Origin: a virus
Taxonomy: Duplodnaviria; Caudoviricetes
Direction: 5' to 3' (one strand)
DNA length: 63,622 bases
IMG/VR virus record: IMGVR_UViG_3300045747_000073
Location: 1-63,622 of that record
The notes beneath the pieces are model-generated. The model saw only the letters and a program-made list of their open reading frames with translations. It ran no database searches and was not told the origin of the DNA. A program made the position numbers and the translations under genes. Below, piece by piece: positions 1 through 60,719 of the stretch (positions are counted from its first letter, which is position 1; every line of letters starts with the position of its first letter).

Positions 1-167
1 TCCCTTGGATAAGACACCAAGACTCAAGAAGGTATTGGGGTGGGCAACCACACTAACCATGCTGGCTAGCCTAGGTAAGGCGGCTCTAAGCTCACAGGTA
101 GAGCTTGCTATGTCTACCCTAGGTACACCGGGTGACTTGGTAAACAAGCAGATTAAGAGCTACACTA
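1..167. repeat. Terminal overlap with 63456-63622 (assembly circularity)
   Basis: Sequences identical except A127 vs G63582; lies inside a gene, so it is an assembly overlap rather than a physical terminal repeat. Confidence 0.97.
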
Positions 168-1414
168 GTAACTTTGCCCGAGAGATTCGTAGTGATATGA
201 ATAAGTTTGGGTCATGGTCTACTGCATCACTGCACTTATCAGCACTGAACTCGTTAGAGATACCACGTAATATCCCTTCTGAAGATCTTAAAATGAAGAT
301 TGAGAAGTATGAGAACGAGTTAGCAGCTAGCCCCGATGAGAAAAGATTAGGTGAAATATCTAATGAGCTTGAGTCATTGTACAACAAATATGCTGGACAC
401 AACCTGTTTGATCGTTTAGGTTACAACGATACAGGCTACAACACCCAGACTAAGTTCGAGTATGAAGACTCAAACATGAAGACTGCTATGCATCTGTTCT
501 CGACAGTAATCCTTTTGAGGGCGCAGACAGACTCAACCAGATTGGCTGTGCTAAGTGTTGCTGGTGATACTGTAATGGGTAAGCTGCAGTCTCTGATGAT
601 GGTTCCTAAGGATAAGTGGGAAGGTATGTTCCAGCGTGGTGAACACATCACTAACGAGCAGGCTCAATCACTTAGGGAACTTGAGATGTATGGTATGGAT
701 GTGCCTATGATGATGGCTGCTATGTCTAAAGCAGATGGGGTTAACCTGTTCAATAAGGATGGCTCTATAGCTGATGCTTATAAGCCAATGTCAGAGAACT
801 TGTATACCACCTTAGGTAACCTAGTAGACTCACGGGTGGTCAACCCGCAAGCCCACAACCTGCCTAAGTACTTCAACGATCCTCGTCTACGTGTCATCAC
901 AGCAATGGGGCGGTTCATGGCAACGGCACATGCAGTTGTACTGCCTAGACTCTACCGCCAGTACTTGCTGGACGGTAACGTAGGTATGCGCTATCAAGCA
1001 TTTAGTGTTATTGCTGGTGCGTTGTTGCTAGGTGCTGTAGCAAACATGCTGAAAGACCAACTATCCTACGGGGAAGATAGCCCGTATATTAACGGGAAGA
1101 GAAAGAATATCCAGAGGACAATCAACTCGTCAGGTATTATAGGACAATATGAAAGAATCGTGGATAATGTATTCCCAATCTATCCACAAACTGGTGCTAA
1201 ATTTTCCAATAACCCTGCATTATGGTTAGGCAGTCAAGTTACACAGGCATCCCCTGTGCTCAGCTGGGCTACTAAACCTGTTGCCGGGGCTATAGCCATT
1301 GGAGAGGGTAACACACCGAAGGGGATTAAAAGCCTTGTAAGGGCCTCACCACTTGTAGGCAGCTTCCCACAAGCAGCATCCTACATTTCATCACTATTTA
1401 AGAAGGAAAACTAA
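5..1414 (+). CDS. C-terminal part of the 1380-aa putative internal virion/ejection protein that starts at 60727
   Basis: Position 5 equals 63460, which is in frame with the ATG at 60727 (911 codons upstream). Confidence 0.85.
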   Translation: MDKTPRLKKVLGWATTLTMLASLGKAALSSQVELAMSTLGTPGDLVNKQIKSYTSNFAREIRSDMNKFGSWSTASLHLSALNSLEIPRNIPSEDLKMKIEKYENELAASPDEKRLGEISNELESLYNKYAGHNLFDRLGYNDTGYNTQTKFEYEDSNMKTAMHLFSTVILLRAQTDSTRLAVLSVAGDTVMGKLQSLMMVPKDKWEGMFQRGEHITNEQAQSLRELEMYGMDVPMMMAAMSKADGVNLFNKDGSIADAYKPMSENLYTTLGNLVDSRVVNPQAHNLPKYFNDPRLRVITAMGRFMATAHAVVLPRLYRQYLLDGNVGMRYQAFSVIAGALLLGAVANMLKDQLSYGEDSPYINGKRKNIQRTINSSGIIGQYERIVDNVFPIYPQTGAKFSNNPALWLGSQVTQASPVLSWATKPVAGAIAIGEGNTPKGIKSLVRASPLVGSFPQAASYISSLFKKEN

Positions 1415-4400
1415 ATGGCAACAATCATTCAGGGAAGACCAGTAACACGGGTTCCATCGGCTTCCACATCAGAGCGAATGCTCGCCTATCTTGGGGTGAA
1501 CCCTAATCTGGTTCCACCGATTGAAGAGGCAGTTGTTCCCGGGGCAGAAGCCTCACAGCAAGCGGTAGATACTATTGTTCCGGAGATGCTAGCGGTACCC
1601 CCGCTAGGGGGTCGGGGGAACTCTGCCGTACAGTTCGCCCCACCACTCGAACCAACATCTACACCGGAAGACTTGGCTATGCTCTCTCAATCGCCGATGG
1701 CGGGTAGAGAACGTTATTCAGTTGAGAACGTGGGTGGTGTTCCCGTTATGGATCCTGCTACTGGTGCTAATAAGGTAACCCCTGTAGGCATGGATCAGTA
1801 CGCCAAAGAGCGTGCTAACCAACTACAGTCACTACCAAACTATTCCCAGATTGATTCAGGCAAGAGCCCAACCGAGTATGCCTCTGAGGTTCTTCAGGAG
1901 CATGCCCGGTCTACTGGGAAGATGACACCTGAACATGCCCGTGAGATCGAGAACTGGGCGGATACTAGTGGTAACATCTTTGGTATCATCCAAGATAGAA
2001 CGATGGCTAACCTGTTTACTCAACCTAAGTTCTTCTCAACCAACCAAGACTATCTTGATGCAGGGCTTAAGGTTCCTGCTGCTACAGAGTTGATTGTTGA
2101 GAACGGATTAGAGGGGCATGAGAAGAATATTGCCACGGCTATCGGTGTGGGTATGAGCATGGGTGTTGGGCAAACACTGATGTATAAAGATGCTGATACT
2201 AAGGATCCTGTTAGTCCAACAGGTCGTACAATGACTGATGCCAGACCACTTGTGGACATCATCAATTCCACTATGGCCTTCGCTCAGAATGCCTTGGATA
2301 ATATGGGCTACAGTGTTCCACCTGAAGTTGTTCGTAAGTTTGCGACTATTCAAGCTCACTCTGAGATTGCTGATGGTAACCTTATCGAGATGAAGGATGA
2401 ACGGGGTCGTTCGGTATTTGGTGCCACACCAGACACTAAGGACTACTCCCGTAAGATGTCTTACTTAGCAGAAGCCTTGAGTGGTGATACCAAGCGTAAG
2501 GGTGTTTCATATGCACCTAATATCTCTGGATCAACCTTTACTGCACCCGGTAGCCAGCTGACTAAGGGGTCCATCACTCCTGATGGAACTAAGGCAACTA
2601 ACGCAGAAGTTGTGAAGGACTTGCTGTCATCCATCCAGTACGTTTACCGCCCTATGGATGTGGCCTACAAAGAGCTAGAGCTTAATATGATCCAAGAAGC
2701 TATGGAGCCTGAGGGTCGTTGGTCTAATAGTGAGTTTGCTAAACGTAACAAGGTGTCTAAAGCTAACTACAATGCGGCTATGGCCGAGTTCAAGCCACCA
2801 GAAGGGTATGACCCAGCAGACCCACAGCAAGTAGAGAAGTTCCAGAAGGACAAGGCAGAACATGCCCGTAGCGTTATCAATGATAAGCTTAAGCTGTTGA
2901 ACTATGATGTCAACACTGCTAAGGGTATCGCCGCCCCATTCTATATCTCCTTGTTGCATGACAACGCTAACCAACGGTTCTACGAGAACACTCGCGGTGC
3001 TGATGCAACTAACTCTAAGACCGGTGTTCGTGAGATGCGTAATCCGTTGAACCAAGACTGGGTTCGTCCTACTAGTTTGTTTGATTCCAAAGAAGTTGAA
3101 CGGATTAAACGGGAAGGCACTGCTGCCCTGTATAAGAACGGTAATGCTAGACAGACTGCCTTTGACAACATGAATATCTCTGATCTGAATGCGGTTGGAA
3201 CAATGATTGCTGCTGTAATTAACTACAATACAGTAGTGAACTCAGACAAGACCGTGCTTAAGCTTCCTGAGAGTGTTCTGTTGGGTATGTATACCCCTGC
3301 TATTGGTGGTGCCTTGGCGCAGTTAGGTGCCCAGTACAAAGCATTCATGGCTAATCCTAAGCAGGGCGATCATACCAATATCAAGCAACACCTAGCGGCC
3401 ATGCCTACTGGTGAAGCACTGGGTAATAAGAACTTGTGGGATAGCTTGGATTCTCTGCTGACCGGGTTCAATGATCCCAACCTCAAGCAGAAGCACGTAC
3501 TAATGTCCTATCTGAACTTTGATGACGGTAATCAGAATGGTATCTTCTTGCAGTCTTTGTTCTATGGTGACTCACCCAATGCTCGTCGTCTGGGTACGTT
3601 CGATCCTACTCTAAACGACATGCGGCAGTTAGCTAGTGGTGTTATTAAGGGTGAGATCAAGAACTTACTAAAGGACAACCCAGAAGCACTCGCTGCTTGG
3701 GGTAACTTCTTTGATGATGTCGGTAAGGATGACAAGTTCGCGGCAGATATGTTCAAGAAGCCTATCATGCGTAACTCGTATGGTATGGATGCTTCCATGT
3801 TTGAGACCCACATCTTTGACTTCTTGGTAGAGAAAGAGGATGCATTTACTAAGCATGTACTAGATACTGGTGTATACAAAGACATGGGTGAGGCTGCAGC
3901 AATGCTCAACAGGGCATTAGAAGCAACACTCCATAAGATTGTTAATCAGCAGTATAGCTCAGTGGTTAAGGCGGCAGGTCGTATGATGGCAGCAGTTGGT
4001 GGATACCCTATTCTTAAAGCACCTGACGGTGACGATATGGTTCTTACACCAGTAAGTCTACAGGGTGTTAACCAACAAGCTAACGACAAGCTTGAGTACC
4101 GCACCCTGCTTAGTGGTGAACGGGTTATGGTTAAGAACAAGGCATACAAGACGGTTGATATTGCTACCGAGGGTGGTGACGTTATTAGCACACCAATAGC
4201 CACTCGCCAAGCCAATCCCGCGTTCCATAAGGGTGTACAGACCTATTACCACGATGGTACTGGCGAGGTATCTACCTTCAAGAACTTCGCAGGCTCAGGT
4301 CTGAAGAACTACATGGCTGTGATGCCTATTCAAGGTGCTGATGGCTCGCTGGTTAAGCTTACGACACTTGCAGTGAACAAGAACAGAACCAATAAGGCTG

Positions 4401-5149
4401 TTCTGCCTGTGTCCTACAACCACGACGCTATTAACTCTACGGGGGCTGGTGCGTTGTACTATCGTAACGCCTACAACAACATTGCCATCCCACAGGCCAT
4501 CCCAGAGATTGCTAAGTTTGGTAAGAGGCTTGAAGCAGCTCTGATGCAAGAGATCCAGAAGACAAAGACTAAAGTATCTGGCATGGGCACTTGGATTGGT
4601 ATCGGTGAAGATGGTGATTACCCGGGCATGGGTGGTTTGTTTGATGAGCTATACGAGAAGATCAGACCAGACGGTTCCTACAAGAACTACTTCTTGCTCC
4701 GGCAAGGGTATGATGTAGATAATAAGTCTGTTCCTTCTGATGTTAAACAAAAGGCATTGTCCTCATGGGATAAGTACTCCGGTAAGATCAAGGACGCAAT
4801 CAACGAGGCTAAGAAGCTGGGTTGGCGTGAGCCCGGGTCTATTGATGAGAACATCCGGGCTGTTGCTGTTGTCAAGCAAGCAGACTATATCAAGATGATT
4901 GATCTGGCGGGTAGACAGCTTAAATTGTTTGGTGACTCCGACAGCAAGCTACACTCTTGGGCCGCTAACTTTGAGAACAAGGTTCTTAAGACGGGTCGTG
5001 ACTTAGCCCTAGCCACTAAGCAGGGCGGTATCGGGCAGATGACTGCTTCGGGTGGCGCTAAGGCAATGTCAGCGGATAAGCTGTATAGCAAACCAATTAC
5101 CGGGTCTCCTGAGCCAAGCACTACTAACCAAGAAGAAACCCCTTTCTAA
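1415..5149 (+). CDS. Divergent single-subunit RNA polymerase, putatively virion-associated (1244 aa)
   Basis: Ordered motifs NQRFY, FDDGNQNG (A, D704), KKPIMRNSYG (B, K781-x7-Y789-G), PIQGADG, NHDAI (C, D1004); last gene of the ejection-protein block. Confidence 0.8.
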   Translation: MATIIQGRPVTRVPSASTSERMLAYLGVNPNLVPPIEEAVVPGAEASQQAVDTIVPEMLAVPPLGGRGNSAVQFAPPLEPTSTPEDLAMLSQSPMAGRERYSVENVGGVPVMDPATGANKVTPVGMDQYAKERANQLQSLPNYSQIDSGKSPTEYASEVLQEHARSTGKMTPEHAREIENWADTSGNIFGIIQDRTMANLFTQPKFFSTNQDYLDAGLKVPAATELIVENGLEGHEKNIATAIGVGMSMGVGQTLMYKDADTKDPVSPTGRTMTDARPLVDIINSTMAFAQNALDNMGYSVPPEVVRKFATIQAHSEIADGNLIEMKDERGRSVFGATPDTKDYSRKMSYLAEALSGDTKRKGVSYAPNISGSTFTAPGSQLTKGSITPDGTKATNAEVVKDLLSSIQYVYRPMDVAYKELELNMIQEAMEPEGRWSNSEFAKRNKVSKANYNAAMAEFKPPEGYDPADPQQVEKFQKDKAEHARSVINDKLKLLNYDVNTAKGIAAPFYISLLHDNANQRFYENTRGADATNSKTGVREMRNPLNQDWVRPTSLFDSKEVERIKREGTAALYKNGNARQTAFDNMNISDLNAVGTMIAAVINYNTVVNSDKTVLKLPESVLLGMYTPAIGGALAQLGAQYKAFMANPKQGDHTNIKQHLAAMPTGEALGNKNLWDSLDSLLTGFNDPNLKQKHVLMSYLNFDDGNQNGIFLQSLFYGDSPNARRLGTFDPTLNDMRQLASGVIKGEIKNLLKDNPEALAAWGNFFDDVGKDDKFAADMFKKPIMRNSYGMDASMFETHIFDFLVEKEDAFTKHVLDTGVYKDMGEAAAMLNRALEATLHKIVNQQYSSVVKAAGRMMAAVGGYPILKAPDGDDMVLTPVSLQGVNQQANDKLEYRTLLSGERVMVKNKAYKTVDIATEGGDVISTPIATRQANPAFHKGVQTYYHDGTGEVSTFKNFAGSGLKNYMAVMPIQGADGSLVKLTTLAVNKNRTNKAVLPVSYNHDAINSTGAGALYYRNAYNNIAIPQAIPEIAKFGKRLEAALMQEIQKTKTKVSGMGTWIGIGEDGDYPGMGGLFDELYEKIRPDGSYKNYFLLRQGYDVDNKSVPSDVKQKALSSWDKYSGKIKDAINEAKKLGWREPGSIDENIRAVAVVKQADYIKMIDLAGRQLKLFGDSDSKLHSWAANFENKVLKTGRDLALATKQGGIGQMTASGGAKAMSADKLYSKPITGSPEPSTTNQEETPF

Positions 5150-5201
5150 ATTAAAACCCCACAAGGTATCCTTATAGGACGCCTTGTGGGGTTATATTTT
5201 T
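5148..5201. terminator. Bidirectional rho-independent terminator between convergent arms
   Basis: AACCCCACAAGG...CCTTGTGGGGTT stem (5155-5193) with A-rich left flank and T-rich right flank. Confidence 0.85.
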
Positions 5202-9263: not shown

Positions 9264-9742
9264 TTATTTTTCCTATTCAAAATATTGTTTCCTGCTGAGA
9301 CTAATCGTGCACCCGTAACACTTTTGTTACTGCTATAAATACCTAATATACCCGGTATCTGGTATAGGCGTACACCTGAATTGAGTAATTCCACGGCCCT
9401 GAGTGCGTGCTCTTCCGTGTAATTGTAAGCCTTGAATACGTCTGGGTTACCTTGTTTGTTGAACAGGGGTTTAAATAGCTTTATTGTCGAGCTTTCCTTT
9501 TGTAAGGCGGTCGGCCTATCTAACATTGTTTCTATAATTACGGCTACATCTGCCATAGTATAGCCCATATAATACAGATCGGTTATCCATTTAGTATGAT
9601 CTTCACTTCTGCTAGTGCCAGATGACGTTCCCGTTGCCCATGCACGGGATCCCGTTCCAATTCCTATATACATTATCTCACCAGTTTGTGGATCTATATG
9701 GTTATAGATGTAATACAACTCCTTCATGGGCCTCCTTAACAA
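9260..9742 (-). CDS. GIY-YIG-like endonuclease
   Basis: YYIYNHIDP...MYIGIGTGSRAW, conserved Glu and PLFN. Confidence 0.65.
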   Translation of the reverse strand: MLRRPMKELYYIYNHIDPQTGEIMYIGIGTGSRAWATGTSSGTSRSEDHTKWITDLYYMGYTMADVAVIIETMLDRPTALQKESSTIKLFKPLFNKQGNPDVFKAYNYTEEHALRAVELLNSGVRLYQIPGILGIYSSNKSVTGARLVSAGNNILNRKNK

Positions 9743-11925
9743 AAGAAATACTGACTGTTTTGGACATCGTTTATATCCAGTGATCCGAGAACTGGTTGTG
9801 TTGCTGAGAAGCTAGGTTTATACTCCATCAAGTTATCTTCGAGTAGATCAAAGAAGTTTTCTACATCATACTGAGCTATGAAGGTCATCTTAGTGATGTC
9901 CTGCAATAGATCAACGTCAGACGCATGACAACTAAAGCTATCATGTACCGCAGCGAATGACCCATTGAATGCTACAATGGTGTTGGCCATGTGAGCAGCA
10001 TCATAACTATGTACTACATTCGGGCTGATCCCCGAGGCGAATGATCTCCGGCATGGGATCTTCTCTCCGGTAGTCTTACCGACTACATCTATCTTAACCA
10101 CATGCATGATCCTGCCTGTCTTACTCCCGGGTAAACCCTTAATGGTTCCCCTCTGCTTGTGCTCATGCTGAAGGTTTGCCTTGTATACGACCGGGAAACC
10201 GCTAGGTGTCTTCCAAGACAACTCATTAGAGCCATTAGCGAGTTCATGCTCAGCCATCTTCTGAAGGTACTTAGTAGTCTTCAGTGGTCCTTGGCATACC
10301 TCGTTGATTGAGTCTATGAGCTTACCAGCCAACATCTCGCAGTCATCTTCGCTGATGTTGTACTTGTGGTTGAACCCTAGCATATGCAGATCATCGTACA
10401 TGTTAGAAGCTATCCGCTTCTTACCTGCTGAGTACGCACGAGTCATAGAGCCCCTCTTAGCAATGCCCTTGCGGATATGCTTCATGGGTATACCACGACT
10501 AGCGAACCAGTCAGGGAGTTTACCTACTAGGTTCTTAGCCACGGCTACGTAGAAGTCCTTCTGTACAGCTTCATTCGTGAGTGACACTAACGATCCTGCT
10601 GCTTTGTCCTTGGACATTGCTGCAAGGTGTTGCCAGCCATTGTTCGAACCATCGATACCCACGGGTAGCCCTGAGTAGTAAGGCTTGCCTAATGCTTGTG
10701 CTATGGTGTAGTTAAAGAGTTCTACACAACAAGATAAGAACCCATACGGCTTCTCTGCTTTAGGTGTCAACTGCTCAGCCTTACCCAACTTAGCAATCAT
10801 GCTATAGTTCTCGATAGTCCACTGAAAACGATCCTCCATCGTCATCTTGTCTACTGATATGGTGTCCAGACCTTCTTCTTCCAAGTACTTCCGGTAGTCG
10901 GTTGTCGTCCAGCTAGGGATCTCATTGATATCATATGATTGATTAAATGAGGTTGCAGCCTTGATGCATATCCACCGATAGCCACTCTTAGTAACCTCCT
11001 TTGTATCCTCAAACAAGAAAAGACTTCTCGCAAGGTCTCCCCCTTGATAAGACAAGAATGATTCAGTGTAGTACATACGCCCACGGTAGTCACAAGATAC
11101 CTCCTGATAGAATGTTTTATCCAGCAGCATTACTGCCTTCTTAATTACTTGCTCGTACTCGTACTTCTTGGAGATCAGTCGTTGTACTCGTGTGTCCCTG
11201 TGTCCAAGGAAGGGGGTGCCTTCGTAAGTGTATTCGCCCCTTGGGAGATCGCCAATTGGATACGAGCCGATAACGCCATCTCCATCAACAAGCTCGATAG
11301 TTGATTTTGGGCTTTCTGCAATTGCTGTGGCGAGTACTGCACCATTGATTTTCCATCCTTGCTGGCGTAGAACTTCCAAGGCTTTAACGAATCGCTCATT
11401 CAAACACTCCTTAAATTTATCTTCGTCAGTCCATCCCTTGATGAATGACTGGTGGGTTAGCGGGCTTTTAAGCCCCGATATCCTAGGTAACGGGACAAGG
11501 GATGTGCCAACGAGTACTGGCTTGATACTGTTAATGTCACCCTTGAGTAGCAGCATGTATGGCGCTTTGAAACCATCGTATGCCCTCTCGATATCTATCA
11601 AGTCATCCTGAAGAAAGGTTTCAATCAGGATGTCACCTAACGCAAGTATATCCTTAATATATGGGTCAATAAGCCGCAGCCTACTAGCCAGTTGAGTACC
11701 TATCATGGTGCTCACAAAGGTTAGTTTAACTGCGGCCATATGGGTTGCACTCTTATTACGGATACAGTACCGTGTTAATGAGTCCCATGCTTCCTCTACA
11801 ATTTCCTCCAATTCGAATTCCCATAATGGGTATTGTGCCAGAAGTAAACAACCTTGGTTGTACATTTTTTCTGACTCCGGTATTACCTTATTGACTCGTT
11901 GAGCCAAATAAACCGATGGATCCAT
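9736..11925 (-). CDS. T7-like single-subunit RNA polymerase (729 aa)
   Basis: DYRGRMY, IDGSNNGWQH, KRGSMTRAYS, SPNVVHSYDA, VHDSF. Confidence 0.95.
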   Translation of the reverse strand: MDPSVYLAQRVNKVIPESEKMYNQGCLLLAQYPLWEFELEEIVEEAWDSLTRYCIRNKSATHMAAVKLTFVSTMIGTQLASRLRLIDPYIKDILALGDILIETFLQDDLIDIERAYDGFKAPYMLLLKGDINSIKPVLVGTSLVPLPRISGLKSPLTHQSFIKGWTDEDKFKECLNERFVKALEVLRQQGWKINGAVLATAIAESPKSTIELVDGDGVIGSYPIGDLPRGEYTYEGTPFLGHRDTRVQRLISKKYEYEQVIKKAVMLLDKTFYQEVSCDYRGRMYYTESFLSYQGGDLARSLFLFEDTKEVTKSGYRWICIKAATSFNQSYDINEIPSWTTTDYRKYLEEEGLDTISVDKMTMEDRFQWTIENYSMIAKLGKAEQLTPKAEKPYGFLSCCVELFNYTIAQALGKPYYSGLPVGIDGSNNGWQHLAAMSKDKAAGSLVSLTNEAVQKDFYVAVAKNLVGKLPDWFASRGIPMKHIRKGIAKRGSMTRAYSAGKKRIASNMYDDLHMLGFNHKYNISEDDCEMLAGKLIDSINEVCQGPLKTTKYLQKMAEHELANGSNELSWKTPSGFPVVYKANLQHEHKQRGTIKGLPGSKTGRIMHVVKIDVVGKTTGEKIPCRRSFASGISPNVVHSYDAAHMANTIVAFNGSFAAVHDSFSCHASDVDLLQDITKMTFIAQYDVENFFDLLEDNLMEYKPSFSATQPVLGSLDINDVQNSQYFFC

Positions 11926-11934
11926 TAGATTCCT

Positions 11935-13542
11935 TTATGCGAAGTCTACCATTTCCTGTTTGTTCAATCGTCCAGTGCTAGTATTATAGCACACTTGCCC
12001 AGCATCTCCGGTGTCACCTGTGAACCGGGCCTTCAGTACTCGGAACTTGATGGTGTTCCTTTCAACAGCATCAGGCGCGATCATGTTACGGGCAAACGCA
12101 ACGATGTCAAAGCAGATCTGTTTGATACTGCCTGAGCCCTTGATGTCATCAAGTGACGGTAGCCGACCCTCTTCGAATGCCTTCTGGTCGTTCTTACCCT
12201 TACGTAGGTGACTGATAACACCAAGCCAGATATTGTGCTTCTTGACAAGCTTAAGTAAGTCACTCATCATAGCATCAATGGCTTCGTTACCTGTCTTGTC
12301 TCCCTGCCCCTCACTCACTGCAATGGTGATGTGGTCCAAGATGATGTGTTTACACCCCATGAGTGCTAGGTACTCCATCTTATCCACCAGTGACTCATCA
12401 CTCACTGAGCCTTGGTGATCCAGCAGTACGAGTCGTTCATCACCAAAGACAGCTTCGAAGGCTTCCTTCTGCTTATCCTCTGGCTGAGACTGTACAAGCC
12501 TTGTCTCCATCTTCATACCAATGAACTTCTCAGCGGTATCGCCCACTGACTCTTCCAAGGACACCATGCCTACCATGTTCTCGGTCTCTGATAGGATATC
12601 CAGTACAATCTCTTTGATCACAGTACTCTTACCAGACCCCGTGCCTGAGGTGAACAATACGATCTCACCCATACGCATACCGCCCAGCTTACTGTTCAGT
12701 TCATTCAGGCATTCAGGGTAGGGTACTGACACGGTATTCTTACGAGACTGGTACTGATCCCATACCTGCTGACCTCGAACGATACCTGCGGGTGAGAATG
12801 GTTTAGCATCAAAGACTGCAGCCATGATCGCGGATGAACCATGCTTGATGAGTACATCGCATGGATCCTTCTCAGGCAGGTTAGCTAGTCGTGCTTTATC
12901 GTAGCCAATTATCTTGGCAACCTCTGCTGCAGCCTTCTTACCCGGCTCATCCATGTCTAGCATTATGACTACTTCTTCGAACCCCCGTAGCCACTCTCGA
13001 TTATCTAGTATAAGCTTAGTTGCTGATGCGGAAGGTAGAGCGACGACCGGATAGAACTTCTGGTACTTATCATACTGAGCTTGTGCCACCGCGAGTGCAT
13101 CCAGTTCCCCTTCGGTGATAACGATTCTTCGACCTCCTGTGCATGTGGATTGGCCAAATAGTTGTATCCCATTGAAGTCTCCAATGATTTGAAACTTCTT
13201 AGGTAGCTCTCGCTGTTTGTAGGCCACGACCACACCATCCTTAGTGTATGGATAGAAGTGCGAATGGATAGTGCCATCTTCCGAGTAAGATACCTTAACA
13301 CCATAATGCTCAGCCACCACTTTAGTGATGCCTCGTTCTTTAAATCCTCTAGTGTCATATGATTTGATCTCGTCTAGTTTGTGCATTGAATAGTTCTCAG
13401 TCTTAAGTACGATAGCTGCGTTAGGATCGATTAATGATGACCTCTGACAGCTAAAACAGAAGCCCCATGTGTCGCCTTCTTTCCATGAGAAGGCATCATG
13501 GCTTGTACATTTAGGACAAGCAGATTGTAACCATCGTGACAT
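11935..13542 (-). CDS. T7 gp4-like primase-helicase
   Basis: Zn finger CPKC/CFSC, TOPRIM TEGELDA and DMDEPG, Walker A SGTGSGKS, ILDHI, VISHL, GSGSIKQ. Confidence 0.96.
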   Translation of the reverse strand: MSRWLQSACPKCTSHDAFSWKEGDTWGFCFSCQRSSLIDPNAAIVLKTENYSMHKLDEIKSYDTRGFKERGITKVVAEHYGVKVSYSEDGTIHSHFYPYTKDGVVVAYKQRELPKKFQIIGDFNGIQLFGQSTCTGGRRIVITEGELDALAVAQAQYDKYQKFYPVVALPSASATKLILDNREWLRGFEEVVIMLDMDEPGKKAAAEVAKIIGYDKARLANLPEKDPCDVLIKHGSSAIMAAVFDAKPFSPAGIVRGQQVWDQYQSRKNTVSVPYPECLNELNSKLGGMRMGEIVLFTSGTGSGKSTVIKEIVLDILSETENMVGMVSLEESVGDTAEKFIGMKMETRLVQSQPEDKQKEAFEAVFGDERLVLLDHQGSVSDESLVDKMEYLALMGCKHIILDHITIAVSEGQGDKTGNEAIDAMMSDLLKLVKKHNIWLGVISHLRKGKNDQKAFEEGRLPSLDDIKGSGSIKQICFDIVAFARNMIAPDAVERNTIKFRVLKARFTGDTGDAGQVCYNTSTGRLNKQEMVDFA

Positions 13543-28357: not shown

Positions 28358-28672
28358 CTAGCTTGCCATCTCCCTAAGTTCTCTGATTGATAATGTACTA
28401 ACAAATAACAAGAAGAAGATCCTTGTATCTGTCATCTCACCCGGTTTACCAAAGCCATCATTGTAAGCGGCATCGCTGCTGGATAGTTTTCGTGTGATTT
28501 GATAGGCGTTATATGCGCCAAGCTTTTCCGCTGTGTAGCAGATACCATTGGCATAGCTACCGTAGTTGGCCTCTAGTGTTCCTCTTTCGAGGATCTGTCT
28601 ACATGCTGTTCGGTATGCAGTCATGTCGTTGATTGAGAATTTAGGACGTAGTCCAATAGCTATGCTATTCAT
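28358..28672 (-). CDS. Hypothetical early protein (104 aa)
   Basis: Co-oriented ORF; its first codons overlap double-hairpin copy C. Confidence 0.55.
   Translation of the reverse strand: MNSIAIGLRPKFSINDMTAYRTACRQILERGTLEANYGSYANGICYTAEKLGAYNAYQITRKLSSSDAAYNDGFGKPGEMTDTRIFFLLFVSTLSIRELREMAS
28643..28668. promoter_or_regulatory. Double-hairpin element, copy C
   Basis: AGGAC-GTA-GTCCA-ATAGC-TAT-GCTAT. Confidence 0.6.
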
Positions 28673-29110: not shown

Positions 29111-29127
29111 TAGTCGGTACCTATTGA
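29111..29127 (+). promoter_or_regulatory. Variant promoter TAGTCGGTACCTATTGA
   Basis: 13-bp core intact; embedded in hairpin ATAGG-G-ACCG-TAGT-CGGT-A-CCTAT. Confidence 0.6.
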
Positions 29128-29153: not shown

Positions 29154-29170
29154 TAGCTGGTACCTAATAG
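29154..29170 (+). promoter_or_regulatory. Putative phage RNAP promoter TAGCTGGTACCTAATAG
   Basis: 17-bp family copy with no credible downstream + gene. Confidence 0.75.
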
Positions 29171-29276
29171 GAAGGTTGATTAGTTACAGTTTAGCGGGGG
29201 ACTGTAACAGCATTTAAATATGCATTAATCGGCCATCTTAGGGGTCTGCCCAGCCCCGCCCCTAGTATGTTAAAGT

Positions 29277-29302
29277 AGAACGTAGTTCGACAGCTATGCT
29301 GT
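29277..29302. promoter_or_regulatory. Double-hairpin element, copy B
   Basis: AGAAC-GTA-GTTCG-ACAGC-TAT-GCTGT, intergenic. Confidence 0.65.
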
Positions 29303-29653
29303 AATATTGAAGAGTATATTAGTAAGTACCTCTTAAACGTTAAGTTGTAGTTAGTGAATCCTTAAAGGAAAAGAATAAAGGTTACTTGGTAGTATACTTG
29401 AAAGTATATTATAGGAGAGGAAGGATTTTTTGATATAACACTTCTTGATACACTTTGTAATGCCTCCTCTGTAGTGATCCTATGAGTAGGGAGCAACGGC
29501 ACGTTGTGACCGCTGGTAAGTGGTGTTTGTCAGAATGATGTACAAATTGTTCGAAAGGTGATCCAAAATGAACAATTTGAACGTTTGACACTCATCACAC
29601 ACAAAATCACTCACAAAATCACCATAAAAATTAGCCCCTGCTTGTGTAGTGTA

Positions 29654-30506: not shown

Positions 30507-30575
30507 GATAAATCCTTGTAGAGTGTATTAGCCAAATGCACTGTACTTACCCGGTGCAGGTCTCTCTGTGCTTAA

Positions 30576-30601
30576 CGGACGTAGTCCGCGAGCTATGCTC
30601 G
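30576..30601. promoter_or_regulatory. Double-hairpin element, copy A
   Basis: CGGAC-GTA-GTCCG-CGAGC-TAT-GCTCG, two perfect 5-bp stems, intergenic. Confidence 0.7.
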
Positions 30602-30932
30602 TTGTCCAGAGAATGGACAGAGTAACTTAATACCCGTGGTGACTGATGATCACTTCAAAGTCAGTGTTCGGGAAGAATGCCAGCAGGTATGCTTCGTTCT
30701 CCGACAGTTCAATCATGAAGTGGTGGTCTTGTTTGGTGAAGATGAAGTATGACATGATAAGCCCTATTGGTTGAGTGAATGATTGACAATGAACATACTA
30801 ACCACATGGACGATGCCAGTGATTAGAGCGAGTGCCATGATGATACTATTGCTAGTGTCTATGGCATAGAAGATCGCTGATCCCCAGATAGCGTACAGTA
30901 CGATGTCAGCGAGTATGTTGCCCATGATAACC

Positions 30933-50786: not shown

Positions 50787-51208
50787 TTGACCTAATCAAA
50801 CAGTTTGAGGGCTTCAGGAGTAAGCCTTACTTGTGTCCTGCTGGCATACCCACGATTGGCTATGGTTCCACCTACTACCCAGATGGGACCAGGGTGACAC
50901 TTTCTGACCCAGAGATTACCCAGCCCATGGCAGAGCAAATGCTTGTCACTCTGGTCAATTCTGGGTACCTCCCAGGGGTTCTTAAGCTATGCCCAGATCT
51001 TTCTGGTAAAACGCTAGAGGCGATCGTTGACTTCGCCTACAATCTTGGGCTAGGTAACTTAGCTAAGTCCACTCTCAGAACAAAGCTGAATGCTAAGGAC
51101 TGGGAAGGGGCTAAGATAGAGCTACTTAAATGGGTAAACAGCGGTGGGAAACCACTAAAAGGTTTAGTACTTCGTAGGCAGGCCGAGGCTTTGCTAGTCG
51201 GTACCTAA
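50783..51208 (+). CDS. GH24 lysozyme (endolysin)
   Basis: E-x8-C-x5-T triad, TIGYG, FAYNLG, GLVLRRQAE. Confidence 0.93.
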   Translation: MIDLIKQFEGFRSKPYLCPAGIPTIGYGSTYYPDGTRVTLSDPEITQPMAEQMLVTLVNSGYLPGVLKLCPDLSGKTLEAIVDFAYNLGLGNLAKSTLRTKLNAKDWEGAKIELLKWVNSGGKPLKGLVLRRQAEALLVGT

Positions 51209-51211
51209 TAG
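51195..51211 (+). promoter_or_regulatory. Putative late promoter TAGTCGGTACCTAATAG
   Basis: Overlaps the lysozyme stop; followed by GGAGG RBS. Confidence 0.8.
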
Positions 51212-58337: not shown

Positions 58338-60719
58338 ATGTTAGCCCCATTGTCAGGCAAGCTTAAAATGAAGATGATGTTGGATCAAGCCAAGTCACAA
58401 GCAGATGAACAGCGTAAGCAAGAAAAGCATGATCTCACACTTGATGCACAAGCAAAGAAGGCTAACTTAGGTTTCCAGTTTGCTACTCGTGATCAGATCA
58501 TTAAAGAGAAGGCTAAGACTAGGGACCTAGGGCTAGCGCCCTCCCCCGTGCCTCCTCTCAACCCTATCCCAGAGATGGAAGAAGAATATGACCAACCTAC
58601 GAACCCTGAAGCTGGGCCTAGTGATGTTGTCCCTGCTATGCTTGCAGAAGGGGAGGCAGTTATTCCCGCTAAGGCTGCACAAGATCCAGAGAACAAAGCA
58701 GTAATTGCCTCTCTTGTTAACGAAGGAAGACAAGGCTTTGCTAAGGGCACAGTAAGTGTTCCTAAGCCCGGTAAGAACCGTACTGGTATCGTTGAGTATG
58801 ATAATTTGTTACCTACTATCCCTATTGTTGGGGTGAGAAGGAAGCTTAAGGGGTATGCTGCTGGATCGGTTGATATTGGGGATGAGCGCGAGAATTACAT
58901 GGCCTTGGCACGTACCCTTGGTCGTGTATCCGCTGATAAAGAACCAGAAAGCTTTGCCATTATAGCCAAAGAGTTACAGGATCAAGCAGGTGTAGTTAAC
59001 AACGGTCGTGTAACACCTGTTGTGGATGTTAACGCCATACCCCGGGCACAAGCGGATTATGACGAAATTGTTAGAGAGATGTCTCGTAACAAAAGCCCAG
59101 ATGCACAAGCGATACTTCAGGGTGAGTTAGACAAAGCTAAGAAAACGCTAGCTATGAAAAGTCCCTTGTATGATGTGCAGGTGGCTTCGCCAGATTCATT
59201 CACGGGTGTAAACCCAGACAGCCCCAACAAGAACTTACGTGCTCAAGGCACTAATGCAATACTACAGCCTAATGGAACAGTAACCACCACTAACACCAGT
59301 ATCAACGGGGCAACAGCCCAAGGTATCCCGCCTATCCAGACATTAGATCAGTTCAACGATTGGAAACGTTCTCGTCATCCGGGCTATGTTGATCCACCAC
59401 AGATTGATGCACTCGCGGGTATGCCTAGGAATGAAGCTGGGTTAGCCGGGGCAGAGCTACAGCCAGTACCCCAGCCAGAGCTAACAGACCCAGTAGCTAT
59501 CAATGCTCACCTTGGCTTTGTTGGTAATGAGTTCAGTGATCGTATTGGTCTGGAAGCAGATACACAAAAGGCTGCGGTAGCTAGTGGTGAGAAGACAACA
59601 GAAGAAGCGACAAGCTTCATGCAAGACTTCTTGTCAGGTATCTTCGGCAAAGACGGTATCATAAACTCCAAGACCCTTAGTAGGTTCGCCTTGCTAGGCG
59701 CTGGTGGTTTGATGACTGGTGGCTCGGTGAATGGTAGCCTTAAGTATGCTGCATTGGATTCGTTGAAGCAGTATGATTCGGGTAACCAAGCCCGTGCTGC
59801 TTCTGCTGCTGAACAGAGTAAGAACACCCGGGAACTAGGTGAGTCACGACAAGCTCAATACAATACAGCCTTGGCTACTACAGAGGTAACCCCCGAAGTC
59901 AAGCGTAAAGCAATTGAGATGGCAGGTGGCGGTACTGTATCGAATTACAACCAAGCTATCCAGTTCCTTGCTGCTAACTCTCAGGCTAAACCCTCTAAGG
60001 AAAACCAGCCTAAGTATGAGATGGGTTACGTTGGTGACACCCTTGTCCCTATCGTTATTCATAATGGAAATCGTTACCAGCAGTCACCAGACGGGAAACT
60101 CTTTACACCTAAACAGCCAGTATTAACTAGTGCTGAGTATGGTGACTTCGACAGGCGCACAGGTGATGACTTCGTTGCTCGTATTACTCCTGAGCTAGAG
60201 CTAGAGACAGGCCCAGACGGTAAGCCGATCGGTACGGCTGCAGCCACTTCAAAGGCTAAACAAATGTCCACTTGGTTCTCGGGTATGCGTAAGGACTTTG
60301 GGGGTGCTCTAGACCACTCAGCACTTGGGGCATTGCAAGCTAACACAGTAACACAACTCAAGGAGTCTGGTAAGCTGAACTCTCGCCTGTCTGAGGCCGG
60401 GTATAAAGCAGCCTTGTATGGTAATGCAGCTATTGCACTCCACCCGAACGATAAGAGCTTGTTTATGACACAGCAAGGTGACAAGACGGTACCACCATCT
60501 GGTGAGTCACTTGTTAAGTTTGGTTCTGCTGTGACTAATTATGCTAAGAAAGAGAACATTCCTTTTGAGAAGGCATCCTCTGATCTTATCAATGCTTGGA
60601 AGCTGCTACAACAACAAGACCCCAAGAAGGCTCAGCGTATGACCACAATGGCTAATGCAGTTAAGGATCAAACAATATCCCCAATGATGTTTTGGGCCGT
60701 GACAGAAGCAAATAAATAG
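58338..60719 (+). CDS. Large putative internal virion protein (793 aa)
   Basis: DVVPAMLAEGEAVIP motif; FAKG and YAAG motifs. Confidence 0.65.
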   Translation: MLAPLSGKLKMKMMLDQAKSQADEQRKQEKHDLTLDAQAKKANLGFQFATRDQIIKEKAKTRDLGLAPSPVPPLNPIPEMEEEYDQPTNPEAGPSDVVPAMLAEGEAVIPAKAAQDPENKAVIASLVNEGRQGFAKGTVSVPKPGKNRTGIVEYDNLLPTIPIVGVRRKLKGYAAGSVDIGDERENYMALARTLGRVSADKEPESFAIIAKELQDQAGVVNNGRVTPVVDVNAIPRAQADYDEIVREMSRNKSPDAQAILQGELDKAKKTLAMKSPLYDVQVASPDSFTGVNPDSPNKNLRAQGTNAILQPNGTVTTTNTSINGATAQGIPPIQTLDQFNDWKRSRHPGYVDPPQIDALAGMPRNEAGLAGAELQPVPQPELTDPVAINAHLGFVGNEFSDRIGLEADTQKAAVASGEKTTEEATSFMQDFLSGIFGKDGIINSKTLSRFALLGAGGLMTGGSVNGSLKYAALDSLKQYDSGNQARAASAAEQSKNTRELGESRQAQYNTALATTEVTPEVKRKAIEMAGGGTVSNYNQAIQFLAANSQAKPSKENQPKYEMGYVGDTLVPIVIHNGNRYQQSPDGKLFTPKQPVLTSAEYGDFDRRTGDDFVARITPELELETGPDGKPIGTAAATSKAKQMSTWFSGMRKDFGGALDHSALGALQANTVTQLKESGKLNSRLSEAGYKAALYGNAAIALHPNDKSLFMTQQGDKTVPPSGESLVKFGSAVTNYAKKENIPFEKASSDLINAWKLLQQQDPKKAQRMTTMANAVKDQTISPMMFWAVTEANK

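What the first reader, a model, noticed from the sequence alone, without database searches (positions are those of the whole stretch)
1415..5149. Hidden second single-subunit RNA polymerase at the end of the ejection-protein block
Seen, in order: NQRFY (R521), FDDGNQNG (D704), KKPIMRNSYG (K781-x7-Y789-G), PIQGADG and NHDAI (D1004). Established: T7 RNAP has DxxGR, motif A D537, motif B K631-x7-Y639-G, HSQDG and motif C D812 in this order; coliphage N4 packages a ~3500-aa vRNAP encoded in its late region. Inference: this is a compact stand-alone virion RNAP of 1244 aa, about a third the size of N4 vRNAP, in a phage whose capsid looks SU10/DUF5309-like. The motif-B Arg position (K-4) is Ala, so it is divergent and easily left as hypothetical.
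Basis: partly seen in the sequence, partly recalled or inferred. Interest (0 to 1): 0.95.

Follow-up and report, generated by a model that had tools for sequence, protein, structure and literature searches.

The report
Compact second phage RNA polymerase
The last gene of this phage's structural operon encodes a highly divergent T7/N4-type single-subunit RNA polymerase that standard annotation misses, and its position suggests, without proving, that it is packed into the virion and injected to start infection.

Summary
ORF 1415-5149 (+) encodes 1244 aa, and all five quoted motifs sit at the stated residues.

Pfam, PHROGs and PDB sequence searches find nothing. The AlphaFold2 model (pLDDT 77, pTM 0.78) matches only single-subunit RNA polymerases: T7, mitochondrial and N4 mini-vRNAP, at E 1e-12 to 1e-10.

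A profile of 37 distant family members aligns to N4-like vRNAP polymerase domains (E 1.5e-9) and to T7-like RNAPs (E 5e-8 and 1e-6). The phage's DNA polymerase scores E 0.17. These residues are invariant across the family.

Virion packaging is inferred, not shown. The evidence:
- The gene directly follows a ~1400-aa protein with weak hits to the N-terminal part of N4-type vRNAP.
- That protein follows one that carries cell-wall hydrolase domains in relatives.
- The block converges on a canonical T7-like RNAP gene, as in N4.

Only Roseobacter phage CRP-7, among cultured phages, carries a homologue, labelled hypothetical.

Verdict: a real, unannotated RNAP family. It is a new variant of the N4-type strategy if packaging is confirmed.

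The parts
1415..5149 (+). Gene for the 1244-aa divergent single-subunit RNA polymerase. Catalytic codons: R521 at 2975-2977, D704 at 3524-3526, K781 at 3755-3757, Y789 at 3779-3781, D1004 at 4424-4426.
   Evidence: ORF and translation. AF2 plus Foldseek matches to T7, mitochondrial and N4 RNAPs. hhalign against N4-like and T7-like RNAPs. Residue invariance.
60727..63622 (+). 5' part of the gene for the 1380-aa upstream protein, a gp16-sized putative ejection protein. It has an SNase-like N-terminal motif and a region that hits the N-terminal part of the N4-type vRNAP profile. The gene continues at window 1-1414 because the window ends overlap by 167 nt.
   Evidence: Overlap is 166 of 167 identical, and the joined ORF is 4143 nt. 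phrog_2206 at E 2.9e-5, residues 295-579 against profile positions 184-450 of 3406. 3 of 23 relatives hit phrog_2206 and 2 of 23 hit a 'virion structural protein' PHROG.
1..1414 (+). 3' part of the same 1380-aa gene. Its TAA stop abuts the ATG of the RNAP gene, and an AAGGA lies 8 nt upstream of that ATG.
58338..60719 (+). 793-aa protein, first of the three large genes and putatively an ejected internal protein. Relatives at this position carry peptidoglycan-hydrolase domains.
   Evidence: Synteny in 37 of 50 IMG/VR loci. 5 of 24 family members hit a transglycosylase PHROG, and others hit endolysin, lytic tail protein or 'internal virion protein with endolysin domain' families. The window's own copy hits nothing.
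5156..5191 (.). Terminator-like hairpins on both strands between the RNAP gene and the convergent minus-strand block.
9736..11925 (-). Canonical T7-like RNA polymerase, 729 aa. This is the phage's other RNAP.
   Evidence: PF00940 at E 1.3e-52 and phrog_414 at E 3.1e-93. A homologue lies 0.6-5.6 kb downstream of the target gene, convergent, in 34 of 34 records with at least 9 kb of downstream sequence.
51195..51211 (+). Nearest upstream copy of the T7-like promoter motif TAGCNGGTACCTAWWRG on the strand of the RNAP gene. Other + copies: 25605, 29111, 29154, 31479, 33531. Minus-strand copies: 6176, 8183, 17931, 23109, 26658.
   Evidence: 12 matches against 0.30 expected; 0 of 100 shuffles reach 12.
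28641..28670 (-). Copy 1 of a twin-hairpin element (NAGC-ATA-GCTN' then GRAC-TAC-GTYC as read on the minus strand) in the putative early region. Candidate hairpin promoter; a lead only.
29275..29304 (-). Copy 2 of the twin-hairpin element, with compensatory changes in both stems.
30574..30603 (-). Copy 3 of the twin-hairpin element, about 70 nt upstream of the ATG at 30506.

Best explanation
**What it is.** The gene encodes a catalytically competent, highly divergent member of the single-subunit (T7 / mitochondrial / N4) DNA-dependent RNA polymerase superfamily.

**Shown here:**
- A right-hand RNAP fold.
- Conserved motif A and motif C aspartates, D704 and D1004.
- Motif B Lys and Tyr, K781 and Y789.
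- The Arg of the T/DxxGR motif, R521.

**Inferred, how it works:**
1. The gene is made late, from the structural operon. That operon is most likely read by the phage's canonical T7-like RNAP from TAGCNGGTACCTA-type promoters.
2. [quoted passage not shown]
3. It is ejected with them into the next host.
4. There it makes the first transcripts of a ~5-kb early region (about 26.7-31.5 kb, minus strand) that lacks T7-like promoters. It may thereby help to pull the genome in.
5. The T7-like RNAP then takes over middle and late genes.

The pair '1380-aa protein + 1244-aa RNAP' would then be an unfused, C-terminal-domain-less counterpart of the 3500-aa N4 vRNAP.
For: **Polymerase identity**
- Fold: AF2 of residues 45-1244 gives pLDDT 77.3 and pTM 0.78.
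- Foldseek against the PDB finds 73 matches at E<=0.001. The 50 listed rows are all T7, yeast or human mitochondrial, or N4 mini-vRNAP chains, at E 1.6e-12 to 7.5e-10.
- Foldseek against BFVD finds 46 matches at E<=0.001. The named ones are phage RNAPs or vRNAPs, apart from two 'coil containing' proteins, one 'uncharacterized' and one 'Gp033'. The first DNA polymerase appears at E 3.4e-3.
- hhalign of the 37-member profile A5:
  - against 6 N4-like polymerase domains: Prob 96.3, E 1.5e-9, 554 columns
  - against 31 T7-like RNAPs: Prob 94.8, E 5.3e-8
  - against 3 T7-like RNAPs: Prob 90.8, E 1.2e-6, with R521=R425, D704=D537, K781=K631, Y789=Y639, D976=D787 and H1003-D1004=H811-D812
  - against the phage's own family-A DNA polymerase, as a control: Prob 0.35, E 0.17
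- Of the 37 distant members, 3 hit phrog_2206 'virion RNA polymerase' (best E 1.1e-7), 3 hit phrog_414 'RNA polymerase' and 1 hits PF00940 at E 0.003.
- The catalytic residues are invariant.
- In the model, D704 ends a strand that is followed by a helix, and H1003-D1004 sit in a beta-turn-beta.

**Packaging**
- There is a zero-nt gap after the 1380-aa gene.
- 41 of 50 IMG/VR loci have a >=1300-aa ORF ending within 60 nt of the target start. The other 9 are cut off or lack upstream DNA.
- The upstream protein hits the N-terminal part of the N4-type vRNAP profile in the window (E 2.9e-5) and in 3 of 23 relatives. It hits 'virion structural protein' PHROGs in 3 of 23.
- The protein before it carries lytic domains in relatives.
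- N4 places vRNAP as the last gene of its late block, after two virion proteins and convergent with the other block.
- T7-like promoter motifs occur at 12 sites but none on the minus strand within 26.7-31.5 kb. Sigma-70-like sites are not enriched there: 11 found against 12.8 expected.

**Precedent**
- A split vRNAP of 1404 + 2481 aa exists in AltAD45 alterophages (PMC3821669, passages read).
- In phage DEV the vRNAP takes the place of T7 gp16 in a gp14/15/16-like operon (PMC11445570, passages read).
Against: **No direct evidence of packaging.** No virion proteomics, transcription data or biochemistry exist for any member.

**Differences from N4.**
- The protein lacks anything like N4's ~1400-aa C-terminal domain. 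From recall, not checked here, that domain is needed for encapsidation.
- No fused long form (2178-5000 aa) was found. The tool itself calls that weak evidence.

**Weak or missing sequence signals.**
- The link between the upstream protein and the vRNAP N-terminal region is weak: 4 of 24 members at E 1e-7 to 3e-5. It is not significant against N4 gp50 residues 1-1000 alone (E 0.094).
- The upstream protein's model is poor (pLDDT 67, pTM 0.40) and found nothing informative.
- HMM-to-sequence searches never reached an RNAP.
- Shallower profiles were not significant: E 0.75, 0.28 and 0.41. A5 against the single N4 sequence gave E 0.13.
- The motif B region of the model, residues 744-751 around Y789, has pLDDT <50.

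**A counter-example.** Vibrio phage Peru-2 has a second T7-like RNAP that is not among the proteins its authors list from virion mass spectrometry (PMC13320782, passages read). A second RNAP therefore need not be packaged.
Confidence: 0.6

Rival explanations
1. It is an active RNA polymerase that stays in the infected cell and is not packaged. It would be a late-expressed second transcriptase for a subset of genes, with its position after the internal-protein genes being incidental.
For: The polymerase evidence is the same as for the main reading. No data place it in virions. It has no N4-like C-terminal domain, and no fused form was found. Peru-2 has a second T7-like RNAP that its authors do not list among virion proteins (PMC13320782, passages read).
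Against: The T7-like promoter motif already covers both late and middle blocks, so a late-made intracellular RNAP has no obvious set of genes to read. The gene abuts the 1380-aa gene, and the synteny with the large internal-type proteins holds in every locus that has upstream sequence. The layout copies that of N4 vRNAP. [quoted passage not shown]
Confidence: 0.2
2. It serves DNA replication or genome entry rather than gene expression. It would make primers or R-loops at an origin, as T7 and mitochondrial RNAPs can (recalled), or act mainly as a motor that pulls DNA in.
For: The enzyme class is compatible with this. The DEV authors propose that the vRNAP domain acts as an ejection motor (PMC11445570, passage read). 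The twin-hairpin elements could be origin-like or entry signals rather than promoters.
Against: The phage has its own primase-helicase at 11935-13542 (phrog_239, E 1.1e-149). A motor role does not exclude transcription and is part of the main reading. No test here separates the two.
Confidence: 0.1
3. It is a structural or ejection protein that kept an RNAP-like fold but lost catalysis.
For: The motif B Arg position (T7 R627) is Ala in the window. The Gly of T/DxxGR is Gln. The motif B region of the model has low confidence.
Against: Both catalytic Asp, the motif B Tyr and the T/DxxGR Arg are invariant down to 14-24% identity. K781 is conserved in 32 of 33 members. That pattern is what selection on catalysis would give. 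Position 777 is Lys in 16 of 33 members.
Confidence: 0.06
4. The motifs are chance matches and the protein is not a polymerase.
For: Pfam, PHROGs and PDB sequence searches give no hit.
Against: Every listed Foldseek match in the PDB is a single-subunit RNAP. hhalign reaches E 1.5e-9 and 5.3e-8 with the correct motif register. The DNA polymerase control gives E 0.17.
Confidence: 0.02

Closest known systems
Coliphage N4 virion RNA polymerase gp50 (Schitoviridae), polymerase domain 'mini-vRNAP', residues 998-2103
   Same: It has the single-subunit RNAP fold. It gives the best profile-profile score (E 1.5e-9), with R521=R424, D704=D559, K781/Y789=K670/Y678 and D1004=D951 aligned. Like gp50, the gene is the last one of the late block, after virion or ejection protein genes, and is convergent with the other block.
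   Different: It is 1244 aa rather than 3500 aa. It has no ~1000-aa N-terminal domain in the same chain; at most that domain exists as the separate upstream 1380-aa protein. It has no ~1400-aa C-terminal domain. The phage has SU10-type capsid and portal proteins and a monomeric T7-like second RNAP, so it is not a schitovirus. Packaging and hairpin-promoter use are shown for N4 (PMC13434306, sections read) but are untested here.
Split vRNAP of Alteromonas phages AltAD45-P1 to P4 (ORF126 of 1404 aa plus ORF127 of 2481 aa) and the 2083-aa vRNAP of Alteromonas phage R22Y
   Same: [quoted passage not shown] The first is ~1400 aa and resembles the N-terminal part of N4 gp50, and the second carries the polymerase (PMC3821669, passages read). 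This shows that vRNAP size and fusion state vary (PMC11705849, passage read).
   Different: The AltAD45 proteins are detectable by BLASTP against N4-like gp50. The proteins here are not. The polymerase-bearing protein here is about half as long, and those phages are N4-related. Fig. S3 of that paper is a supplement and could not be seen.
T7 RNA polymerase and Autographiviridae-type phage RNAPs (Pfam PF00940)
   Same: It shares the fold and all catalytic motifs. The local ungapped stretch DGNQNGIFLQS resembles T7 DGSCSGIQHFS, read from the alignment.
   Different: It has no PF00940 or PHROG hit. It is ~360 aa longer, with a ~200-aa C-terminal extension after motif C. It lies in the late structural operon rather than the early or DNA-metabolism region. 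The same genome already has a PF00940 RNAP.
T7 internal core and ejection proteins gp14, gp15 and gp16
   Same: There is a run of a small, a ~750-800-aa and a >1300-aa protein. Here they are 211, 793 and 1380 aa. The run sits late in the structural genes, and lytic domains occur in some relatives. The gp14/15/16 pattern is described in PMC11445570 (passage read).
   Different: No sequence or fold similarity to T7 gp14-16 was demonstrated here. The exact T7 protein sizes are recalled. A fourth gene, the RNAP, is appended.
Virion RNAPs of crAss-like phages (phi14:2 gp66) and Thermus phage P23-45 (tape-measure fusion)
   Same: These are packaged phage RNAPs that transcribe the earliest genes (abstracts seen in the listing).
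   Different: They are two-barrel, multisubunit-type enzymes, unrelated in fold to the right-hand enzyme here.
Roseobacter phage CRP-7 gp33 (QBQ72826.1, 1235 aa, 'hypothetical protein')
   Same: It is the only homologue in 50,697 phage records. The layout is the same: gp35 (1223 aa), gp34 (1368 aa), gp33, then a convergent T7-like RNAP gp30.
   Different: It shares only ~22% identity over 38% of the query. The CRP-7 paper annotates ORF30 as the RNAP and does not mention this gene (PMC6918029, passages read; supplements not seen).

Membership tests
Single-subunit (T7 / mitochondrial / N4) DNA-dependent RNA polymerase superfamily | Right-hand fold with N-terminal domain, thumb, palm and fingers, similar to solved ssRNAPs | tested here: met
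   AF2 gives pLDDT 77.3 and pTM 0.78. Foldseek against the PDB has its top 50 rows all ssRNAPs, at E down to 1.6e-12 and TM 0.31-0.59, over ~1000 aligned columns. BFVD gives the same picture.
Single-subunit (T7 / mitochondrial / N4) DNA-dependent RNA polymerase superfamily | Motif A and motif C catalytic aspartates (T7 D537 and D812) | tested here: met
   D704 and D1004 align to T7 D537 and D812 and to N4 D559 and D951. They are invariant in 33 of 33 and 37 of 37 members.
Single-subunit (T7 / mitochondrial / N4) DNA-dependent RNA polymerase superfamily | Motif B, R-x3-K-x7-YG (T7 R627, K631, Y639, G640) | tested here: inconclusive
   K781, Y789 and G790 are present and aligned. Y is in 33 of 33 members and K in 32 of 33. 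The R627 position is Ala in the window, and K in 16, S in 9, A in 4 and N in 2 of 33 members. The model is of low confidence here.
Single-subunit (T7 / mitochondrial / N4) DNA-dependent RNA polymerase superfamily | T/DxxGR motif (T7 D421-R425; N4 R424) | tested here: met
   R521 aligns to T7 R425 and N4 R424 and is invariant. The Gly is Gln and the first position is Asn, so the motif reads NANQR.
Single-subunit (T7 / mitochondrial / N4) DNA-dependent RNA polymerase superfamily | Spatial adjacency of the two catalytic Asp in the palm | not testable with these tools
Only topology can be read: D704 lies at the end of strand 657-661 (model numbering) followed by a helix, and H1003-D1004 lie between strands 956-958 and 961-964.
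Single-subunit (T7 / mitochondrial / N4) DNA-dependent RNA polymerase superfamily | Match to the curated family model Pfam PF00940 (RNA_pol) | tested here: not met
   The query has 0 Pfam families even at E<=10. Only 1 of 37 distant members reaches E 0.003, below the usual cut-off.
Single-subunit (T7 / mitochondrial / N4) DNA-dependent RNA polymerase superfamily | Template-dependent RNA synthesis | not testable with these tools
   This needs biochemistry.
N4-type virion RNA polymerase (Schitoviridae gp50) | Polymerase domain homologous to mini-vRNAP | tested here: met
   hhalign of A5 against 6 N4-like domains gives Prob 96.3 and E 1.5e-9. 3 of 37 distant members hit phrog_2206. It is not significant against the single N4 sequence.
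N4-type virion RNA polymerase (Schitoviridae gp50) | Giant single chain (~2800-3800 aa) with N-terminal and C-terminal domains flanking the polymerase | tested here: not met
   The protein is 1244 aa. Family members among the 150 best of 217 representatives are no longer than 1606 aa. No 2178-5000-aa relative was found. A published N4-like screen discarded proteins under 2500 aa (PMC10654107, passage read).
N4-type virion RNA polymerase (Schitoviridae gp50) | Last gene of the late operon, next to ejection-protein genes | tested here: met
   N4 layout. Window and 50 loci. Lytic domains and 'virion structural' hits in the neighbours.
N4-type virion RNA polymerase (Schitoviridae gp50) | Present in virions and injected; rifampicin-resistant early transcription | not testable with these tools
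   No proteomic or transcription data were found for any member.
N4-type virion RNA polymerase (Schitoviridae gp50) | Initiation at extruded DNA-hairpin promoters in the early region | tested here: inconclusive
   Three twin-hairpin elements with compensatory changes lie in the putative early region. They are not found in 5 related genomes, nor elsewhere in IMG/VR. The CRP-7 left end gives no clear family.

The most novel reading that the evidence does not exclude
The 1380-aa protein plus the 1244-aa polymerase would be a natural 'unfused mini-vRNAP' system. The internal proteins and a compact right-hand RNAP are ejected together. The enzyme initiates at twin DNA hairpins (stems of 4-6 bp, loops of 3 nt) in the early region. 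This arrangement would be either the ancestral state from which the giant N4 vRNAP arose by fusion, or a reduced derivative of it. It would occur in a widespread aquatic podophage lineage that is not Schitoviridae and that runs a two-polymerase programme of virion RNAP followed by T7-like RNAP.
Probability: 0.3. Interest if true: 0.85.

Novelty: new variant of a known kind. Interest (0 to 1): 0.72.

Why it matters
**Biology.** Packaged right-hand RNA polymerases are so far a hallmark of N4-like phages, where they are ~3500-aa giants. A ~1250-aa stand-alone version in a different capsid lineage would have three consequences:
- It would show that the 'bring your own polymerase' strategy is more widespread than thought. 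The family has 217 clusters at 50% identity and 50 IMG/VR loci.
- It would give a far more tractable enzyme for studying how a polymerase is packaged and passed through a tail channel.
- It would bear on how the giant N4 enzyme evolved, by fusion or by fission with a gp16-like ejection protein.

**Annotation.** Even without packaging, this is a whole family of single-subunit RNAPs that Pfam and PHROGs do not recognise and that every source seen calls hypothetical. It is also a possible source of new orthogonal transcription enzymes.

Tried and rejected
**Sequence-to-profile searches that never reached an RNAP**
- Pfam, PHROGs and PDB with the query alone.
- PDB with profiles of 12, 28 and 37 sequences. 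Only chance-level hits to FhuD or lipocalin appeared.

**Profile-profile comparisons with shallow profiles, not significant**
- A1 against 3 T7-like RNAPs: E 0.75.
- A1 against N4 mini-vRNAP: E 0.28.
- A4 against 31 T7-like RNAPs: E 0.41. That alignment put motif A in the wrong place, although motifs B and C were in register.
- A5 against the single N4 sequence: E 0.13.
- Significance came only with the 37 distant members. I chose those 37 from the 150 listed of 217 representatives, taking long and more distant ones.

**Other attempts**
- Fused forms: none among 2178-5000-aa proteins. The tool says this is weak evidence.
- Upstream 1380-aa protein:
  - hhalign against N4 gp50 residues 1-1000 gave E 0.094.
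  - tblastn found only CRP-7 gp34.
  - The AF2 model was poor (pLDDT 67.4, pTM 0.40). Its BFVD matches had TM of about 0.2 or less and no informative names at E<=0.001.
  - I therefore draw nothing from its fold.
- C-terminal 'PF': invariant in the first 12 sequences, but it ends only 9 of 39 distinct C-termini. I dropped the idea of a T7-like C-terminal 'foot'.
- Twin-hairpin element:
  - No match in 5 complete relatives.
  - None in IMG/VR.
  - My simple scan found no analogous hairpin family in 16-kb stretches of three relatives.
  - The CRP-7 left end has one hairpin with a 5-bp stem and ATA loop in the first intergenic region, but no repeat family.
  - The promoter reading therefore stays a lead.
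- Sigma-70 scan of the early region: 11 sites against 12.8 expected. The host is unknown, so this is weak.
- Tests of binding (complex prediction) and of expression (sequencing runs) were not attempted.
- ESM Atlas: the nearest named clusters carry PF00940, at scores of 0.92-0.93. This is a lead only.
- Papers' supplements were closed. The CRP-7 annotation tables and AltAD45 Fig. S3 could bear on the claims and were not seen.

Full report
**Observation.** ORF 1415-5149 on the + strand is open and encodes 1244 aa.
- NQRFY, with R521
- FDDGNQNG, with D704
- KKPIMRNSYG, with K781, Y789 and G790
- PIQGADG, at 971-977
- NHDAI, with H1003 and D1004

The window is a complete virus record of 63,622 bases whose ends overlap by 167 nt, 166 of them identical. 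The ORF that runs off the 3' end at 60727 therefore continues at base 1 and ends at 1414. That gives a 1380-aa protein whose TAA stop abuts the ATG of the target gene.

**Standard annotation finds nothing.**
- Pfam at E<=10, PHROGs at E<=1 and PDB sequences at E<=10 all give no hit.
- tblastn against 50,697 phage records finds one relative, CRP-7 gp33, a 1235-aa 'hypothetical protein', at 22% identity over 38% of the query and E 2e-5.
- Two distant family members used as queries again find only CRP-7 or nothing.

**A real, sizeable family.**
- The 5.8-billion-protein search returned 12 proteins at E<=0.001. One is an 831-aa piece identical to the query. The others are 1246-1401 aa at 30-43% identity, unnamed or 'hypothetical'.
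- IMG/VR holds 50 loci.
- A profile of the C-terminal 765 residues finds 217 cluster representatives at E<=0.001, 170 of them at <=1e-10. Full-length ones are mostly 1150-1500 aa.
- Among 33 members at <95% identity, taken from 46 full-length ORFs, R521, D704, Q707, Y789, Q973, D976, H1003 and D1004 are invariant. K781 is conserved in 32 of 33.
- Among 37 members that share only 14-24% identity with the query, the invariant columns are exactly R521, R539, D704, Y789 and D1004.

**Fold.** The result was pLDDT 77.3 and pTM 0.78.
- Foldseek against the PDB gave 73 matches at E<=0.001. All 50 listed rows are single-subunit RNAPs: yeast and human mitochondrial RNAP, T7 RNAP and N4 mini-vRNAP. E-values run from 1.6e-12 to 7.5e-10, over about 1000 aligned columns, with TM 0.31-0.59.
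- Against predicted viral structures there are 46 matches at E<=0.001. Those with names are phage RNAPs or N4-type vRNAP pieces, apart from four uninformative names. The first DNA polymerase comes at E 3.4e-3.
- In the model, D704 ends a beta-strand that is followed by a helix, and H1003-D1004 sit in a beta-turn-beta. These are the topologies of motifs A and C.
- The stretch around Y789 has low confidence.

**Sequence-level homology and register.** Shallow profiles were not significant. The 37-member profile A5 gave these results:

| Target | Prob | E-value | Columns |
|---|---|---|---|
| 6 N4-like polymerase domains | 96.3 | 1.5e-9 | 554 |
| 31 T7-like RNAPs | 94.8 | 5.3e-8 | 599 |
| T7 gp1 + window T7-like RNAP + CRP-7 gp30 | 90.8 | 1.2e-6 | 431 |
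| Phage's own family-A DNA polymerase (control) | 0.35 | 0.17 | 36 |

The printed alignments pair the residues as follows:

| This protein | T7 | N4 |
|---|---|---|
| R521 | R425 | R424 |
| D704 | D537 | D559 |
| K781 | K631 | K670 |
| Y789 | Y639 | Y678 |
| Q973 | H784 | not aligned here |
| D976 | D787 | not aligned here |
| H1003-D1004 | H811-D812 | D951 |

As transitive support, 3 of the 37 distant members hit the PHROG of N4-type vRNAPs (best E 1.1e-7), 3 hit a T7-type RNAP PHROG and 1 hits PF00940 at E 0.003. The scores do not decide firmly whether the family is nearer to N4 vRNAP or to T7-type enzymes.

**Context.**
- *General layout.* The genome has SU10-type portal and capsid proteins, a terminase, tail-fibre genes, and a minus-strand block with family-A DNA polymerase, primase-helicase, ribonucleotide reductase and a canonical T7-like RNAP at 9736-11925. 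The plus-strand structural block ends with genes of 211, 793, 1380 and 1244 aa. Terminator-like hairpins at 5156-5191 separate it from the convergent block.
- *Conserved synteny.* In 41 of 50 IMG/VR loci a >=1300-aa ORF ends within 60 nt of the target's start, and 37 of these also have a >=600-aa ORF before it. The remaining loci are cut off upstream. A T7-like RNAP lies convergent, 0.6-5.6 kb downstream, in 34 of 34 records with at least 9 kb of downstream sequence. The 12 records without one have at most 3.5 kb downstream. CRP-7 has the same order: gp35, gp34, gp33, then convergent gp30.
- *Signs of virion or ejection function in the neighbours.* The 1380-aa protein hits the N-terminal part (positions 184-450 of 3406) of the N4-type vRNAP PHROG at E 2.9e-5. 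Of 23 relatives, 3 hit the same profile and 3 hit 'virion structural protein' PHROGs. Among 24 members of the 793-aa family, 5 hit a transglycosylase PHROG. Others hit endolysin, lytic tail protein or 'internal virion protein with endolysin domain' families, but the window's own copy hits none.
- *Comparison with N4.* N4 places its vRNAP as the last gene of the late block, after the 66-kDa and 16.5-kDa virion proteins, and convergent with the other block.

**Transcription signals.**
- *T7-like promoter motif.* TAGCNGGTACCTAWWRG resembles T7-type promoters (my reading). It occurs 12 times against 0.30 expected by chance. It lies in front of the terminase, portal and a tail-fibre gene on the + strand, and at five places on the - strand from 26.7 kb downwards.
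- *Early region.* None of these sites lies on the - strand between 26.7 and 31.5 kb. That stretch holds small genes, which I take to be the early region. Sigma-70-like sites are not enriched there.
- *Twin-hairpin element.* In that stretch a 23-nt element occurs three times against 0.25 expected by chance. It folds as two adjacent hairpins with stems of 4-6 bp and loops of 3 nt, at z -2.6 to -3.5. Base changes between copies keep both stems paired.
- *Status.* N4 vRNAP uses single-stranded DNA hairpin promoters (PMC13434306, introduction read). The stem and loop sizes of N4 promoters are recalled, not checked. I could not find the element in relatives, so it is a lead and not evidence.

**Most likely mechanism.**
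- *Shown:* a conserved single-subunit RNAP with an intact catalytic set.
- *Inferred:* it is expressed late with the internal proteins, packaged, ejected, and used to transcribe the early region before the T7-like RNAP takes over. I put this at about 0.6.
- *Rivals:* an unpackaged second RNAP (0.2), a mainly replicative or motor role (0.1), a catalytically dead structural protein (0.06), and a chance resemblance (0.02).
- *Against packaging:* there is no N4-like C-terminal domain and no fused forms. The links of the upstream protein are weak. Peru-2 has a second T7-like RNAP that is not listed among its virion proteins (PMC13320782, passages read).

**Comparison with what is known.**
- Packaged right-hand RNAPs are known from Schitoviridae, at about 2800-3800 aa (PMC10654107, passage read; PMC13434306).
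- A split form of 1404 + 2481 aa is described for AltAD45 phages (PMC3821669, passages read), and a 2083-aa form for R22Y (PMC11705849, passage read).
- The DEV study equates gp73, gp72 and gp71 (the vRNAP) with T7 gp14, gp15 and gp16 (PMC11445570, passages read).
- A 2270-aa protein of phage StenR_269 was guessed to be a vRNAP without homology evidence (PMC10747016, passages read).
- My five full-text searches found no description of a ~1250-aa stand-alone RNAP at the end of an internal-protein operon, nor of CRP-7 gp33 as a polymerase. The CRP-7 paper names only ORF30 (PMC6918029, passages read). Supplements were closed.

I therefore rate this a new variant of a known kind. The enzyme family is new to annotation, and the strategy is N4-like but in a compact, unfused form and in another phage lineage.

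**Limits.**
- There are no model coordinates.
- The family's relation to N4 as against T7 enzymes is unresolved.
- Virion association is untested.

Noticed in passing
window 1-167 and 63456-63622: The two ends of the window are the same 167 nt, 166 of 167 identical with one A/G difference at position 127. The repeat falls inside the 1380-aa gene. It therefore looks like an assembly overlap of a circular or permuted genome rather than a physical terminal repeat.
   Followed up: partly
window 60727-61100 (N-terminus of the 1380-aa protein): The family consensus YRLxGFNAPE, together with a beta-rich N-terminal domain in the model, resembles staphylococcal-nuclease-type domains. Only 1 of 23 relatives reaches PF00565, at E 0.0019. 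A nuclease-like head on a putative ejected protein is unexplained.
   Followed up: partly
window 29111-29127 and 29154-29170 (+): Two copies of the T7-like promoter motif point in the + direction inside the putative minus-strand early region. They would drive antisense transcription across the early genes towards the terminase gene.
   Followed up: no
window 29180-29270 (- strand reading): A G+C-rich stem (AGGGG...CCCCT) and a long untranslated stretch lie between twin-hairpin copy 2 and the ATG at 29071, 207 nt away. This may be a structured leader.
   Followed up: no
window 40692-42683, 43973-45226 and 45633-47635: These tail-region genes contain internal repeats: 216-nt units in the 663-aa ORF, collagen-like GXY repeats in the 417-aa fibre protein, and glycine-rich runs in the next two ORFs.
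   Followed up: no
target protein C-terminus and family members (L008, L009, L012, L021, L022, L031, L050 and others): The conserved GI(G/A)QM(T/S) element near residue 1205-1210 is the actual C-terminus (…QMTHA) in one subgroup. Another subgroup, including the window, extends further and ends in PF (9 of 39 distinct ends).
   Followed up: partly
L062 (CRP-7) 1436-1626: An intergenic region near the left end of CRP-7 holds about 7 iteron-like copies of AAACCTTG(A/G). It could be an origin or a promoter cluster.
   Followed up: no
window 1415-1480: The ESM Atlas holds this protein starting at residue 22 read as Met. Homologues align from residue 1, and M1 is nearly invariant, so the longer start is preferred.
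   Followed up: partly
window 57691-58326 (+): A 211-aa ORF directly before the 793-aa gene has no PHROG hit. By size and position it could be the gp14-like small member of an ejection-protein set. This was not tested.
   Followed up: no
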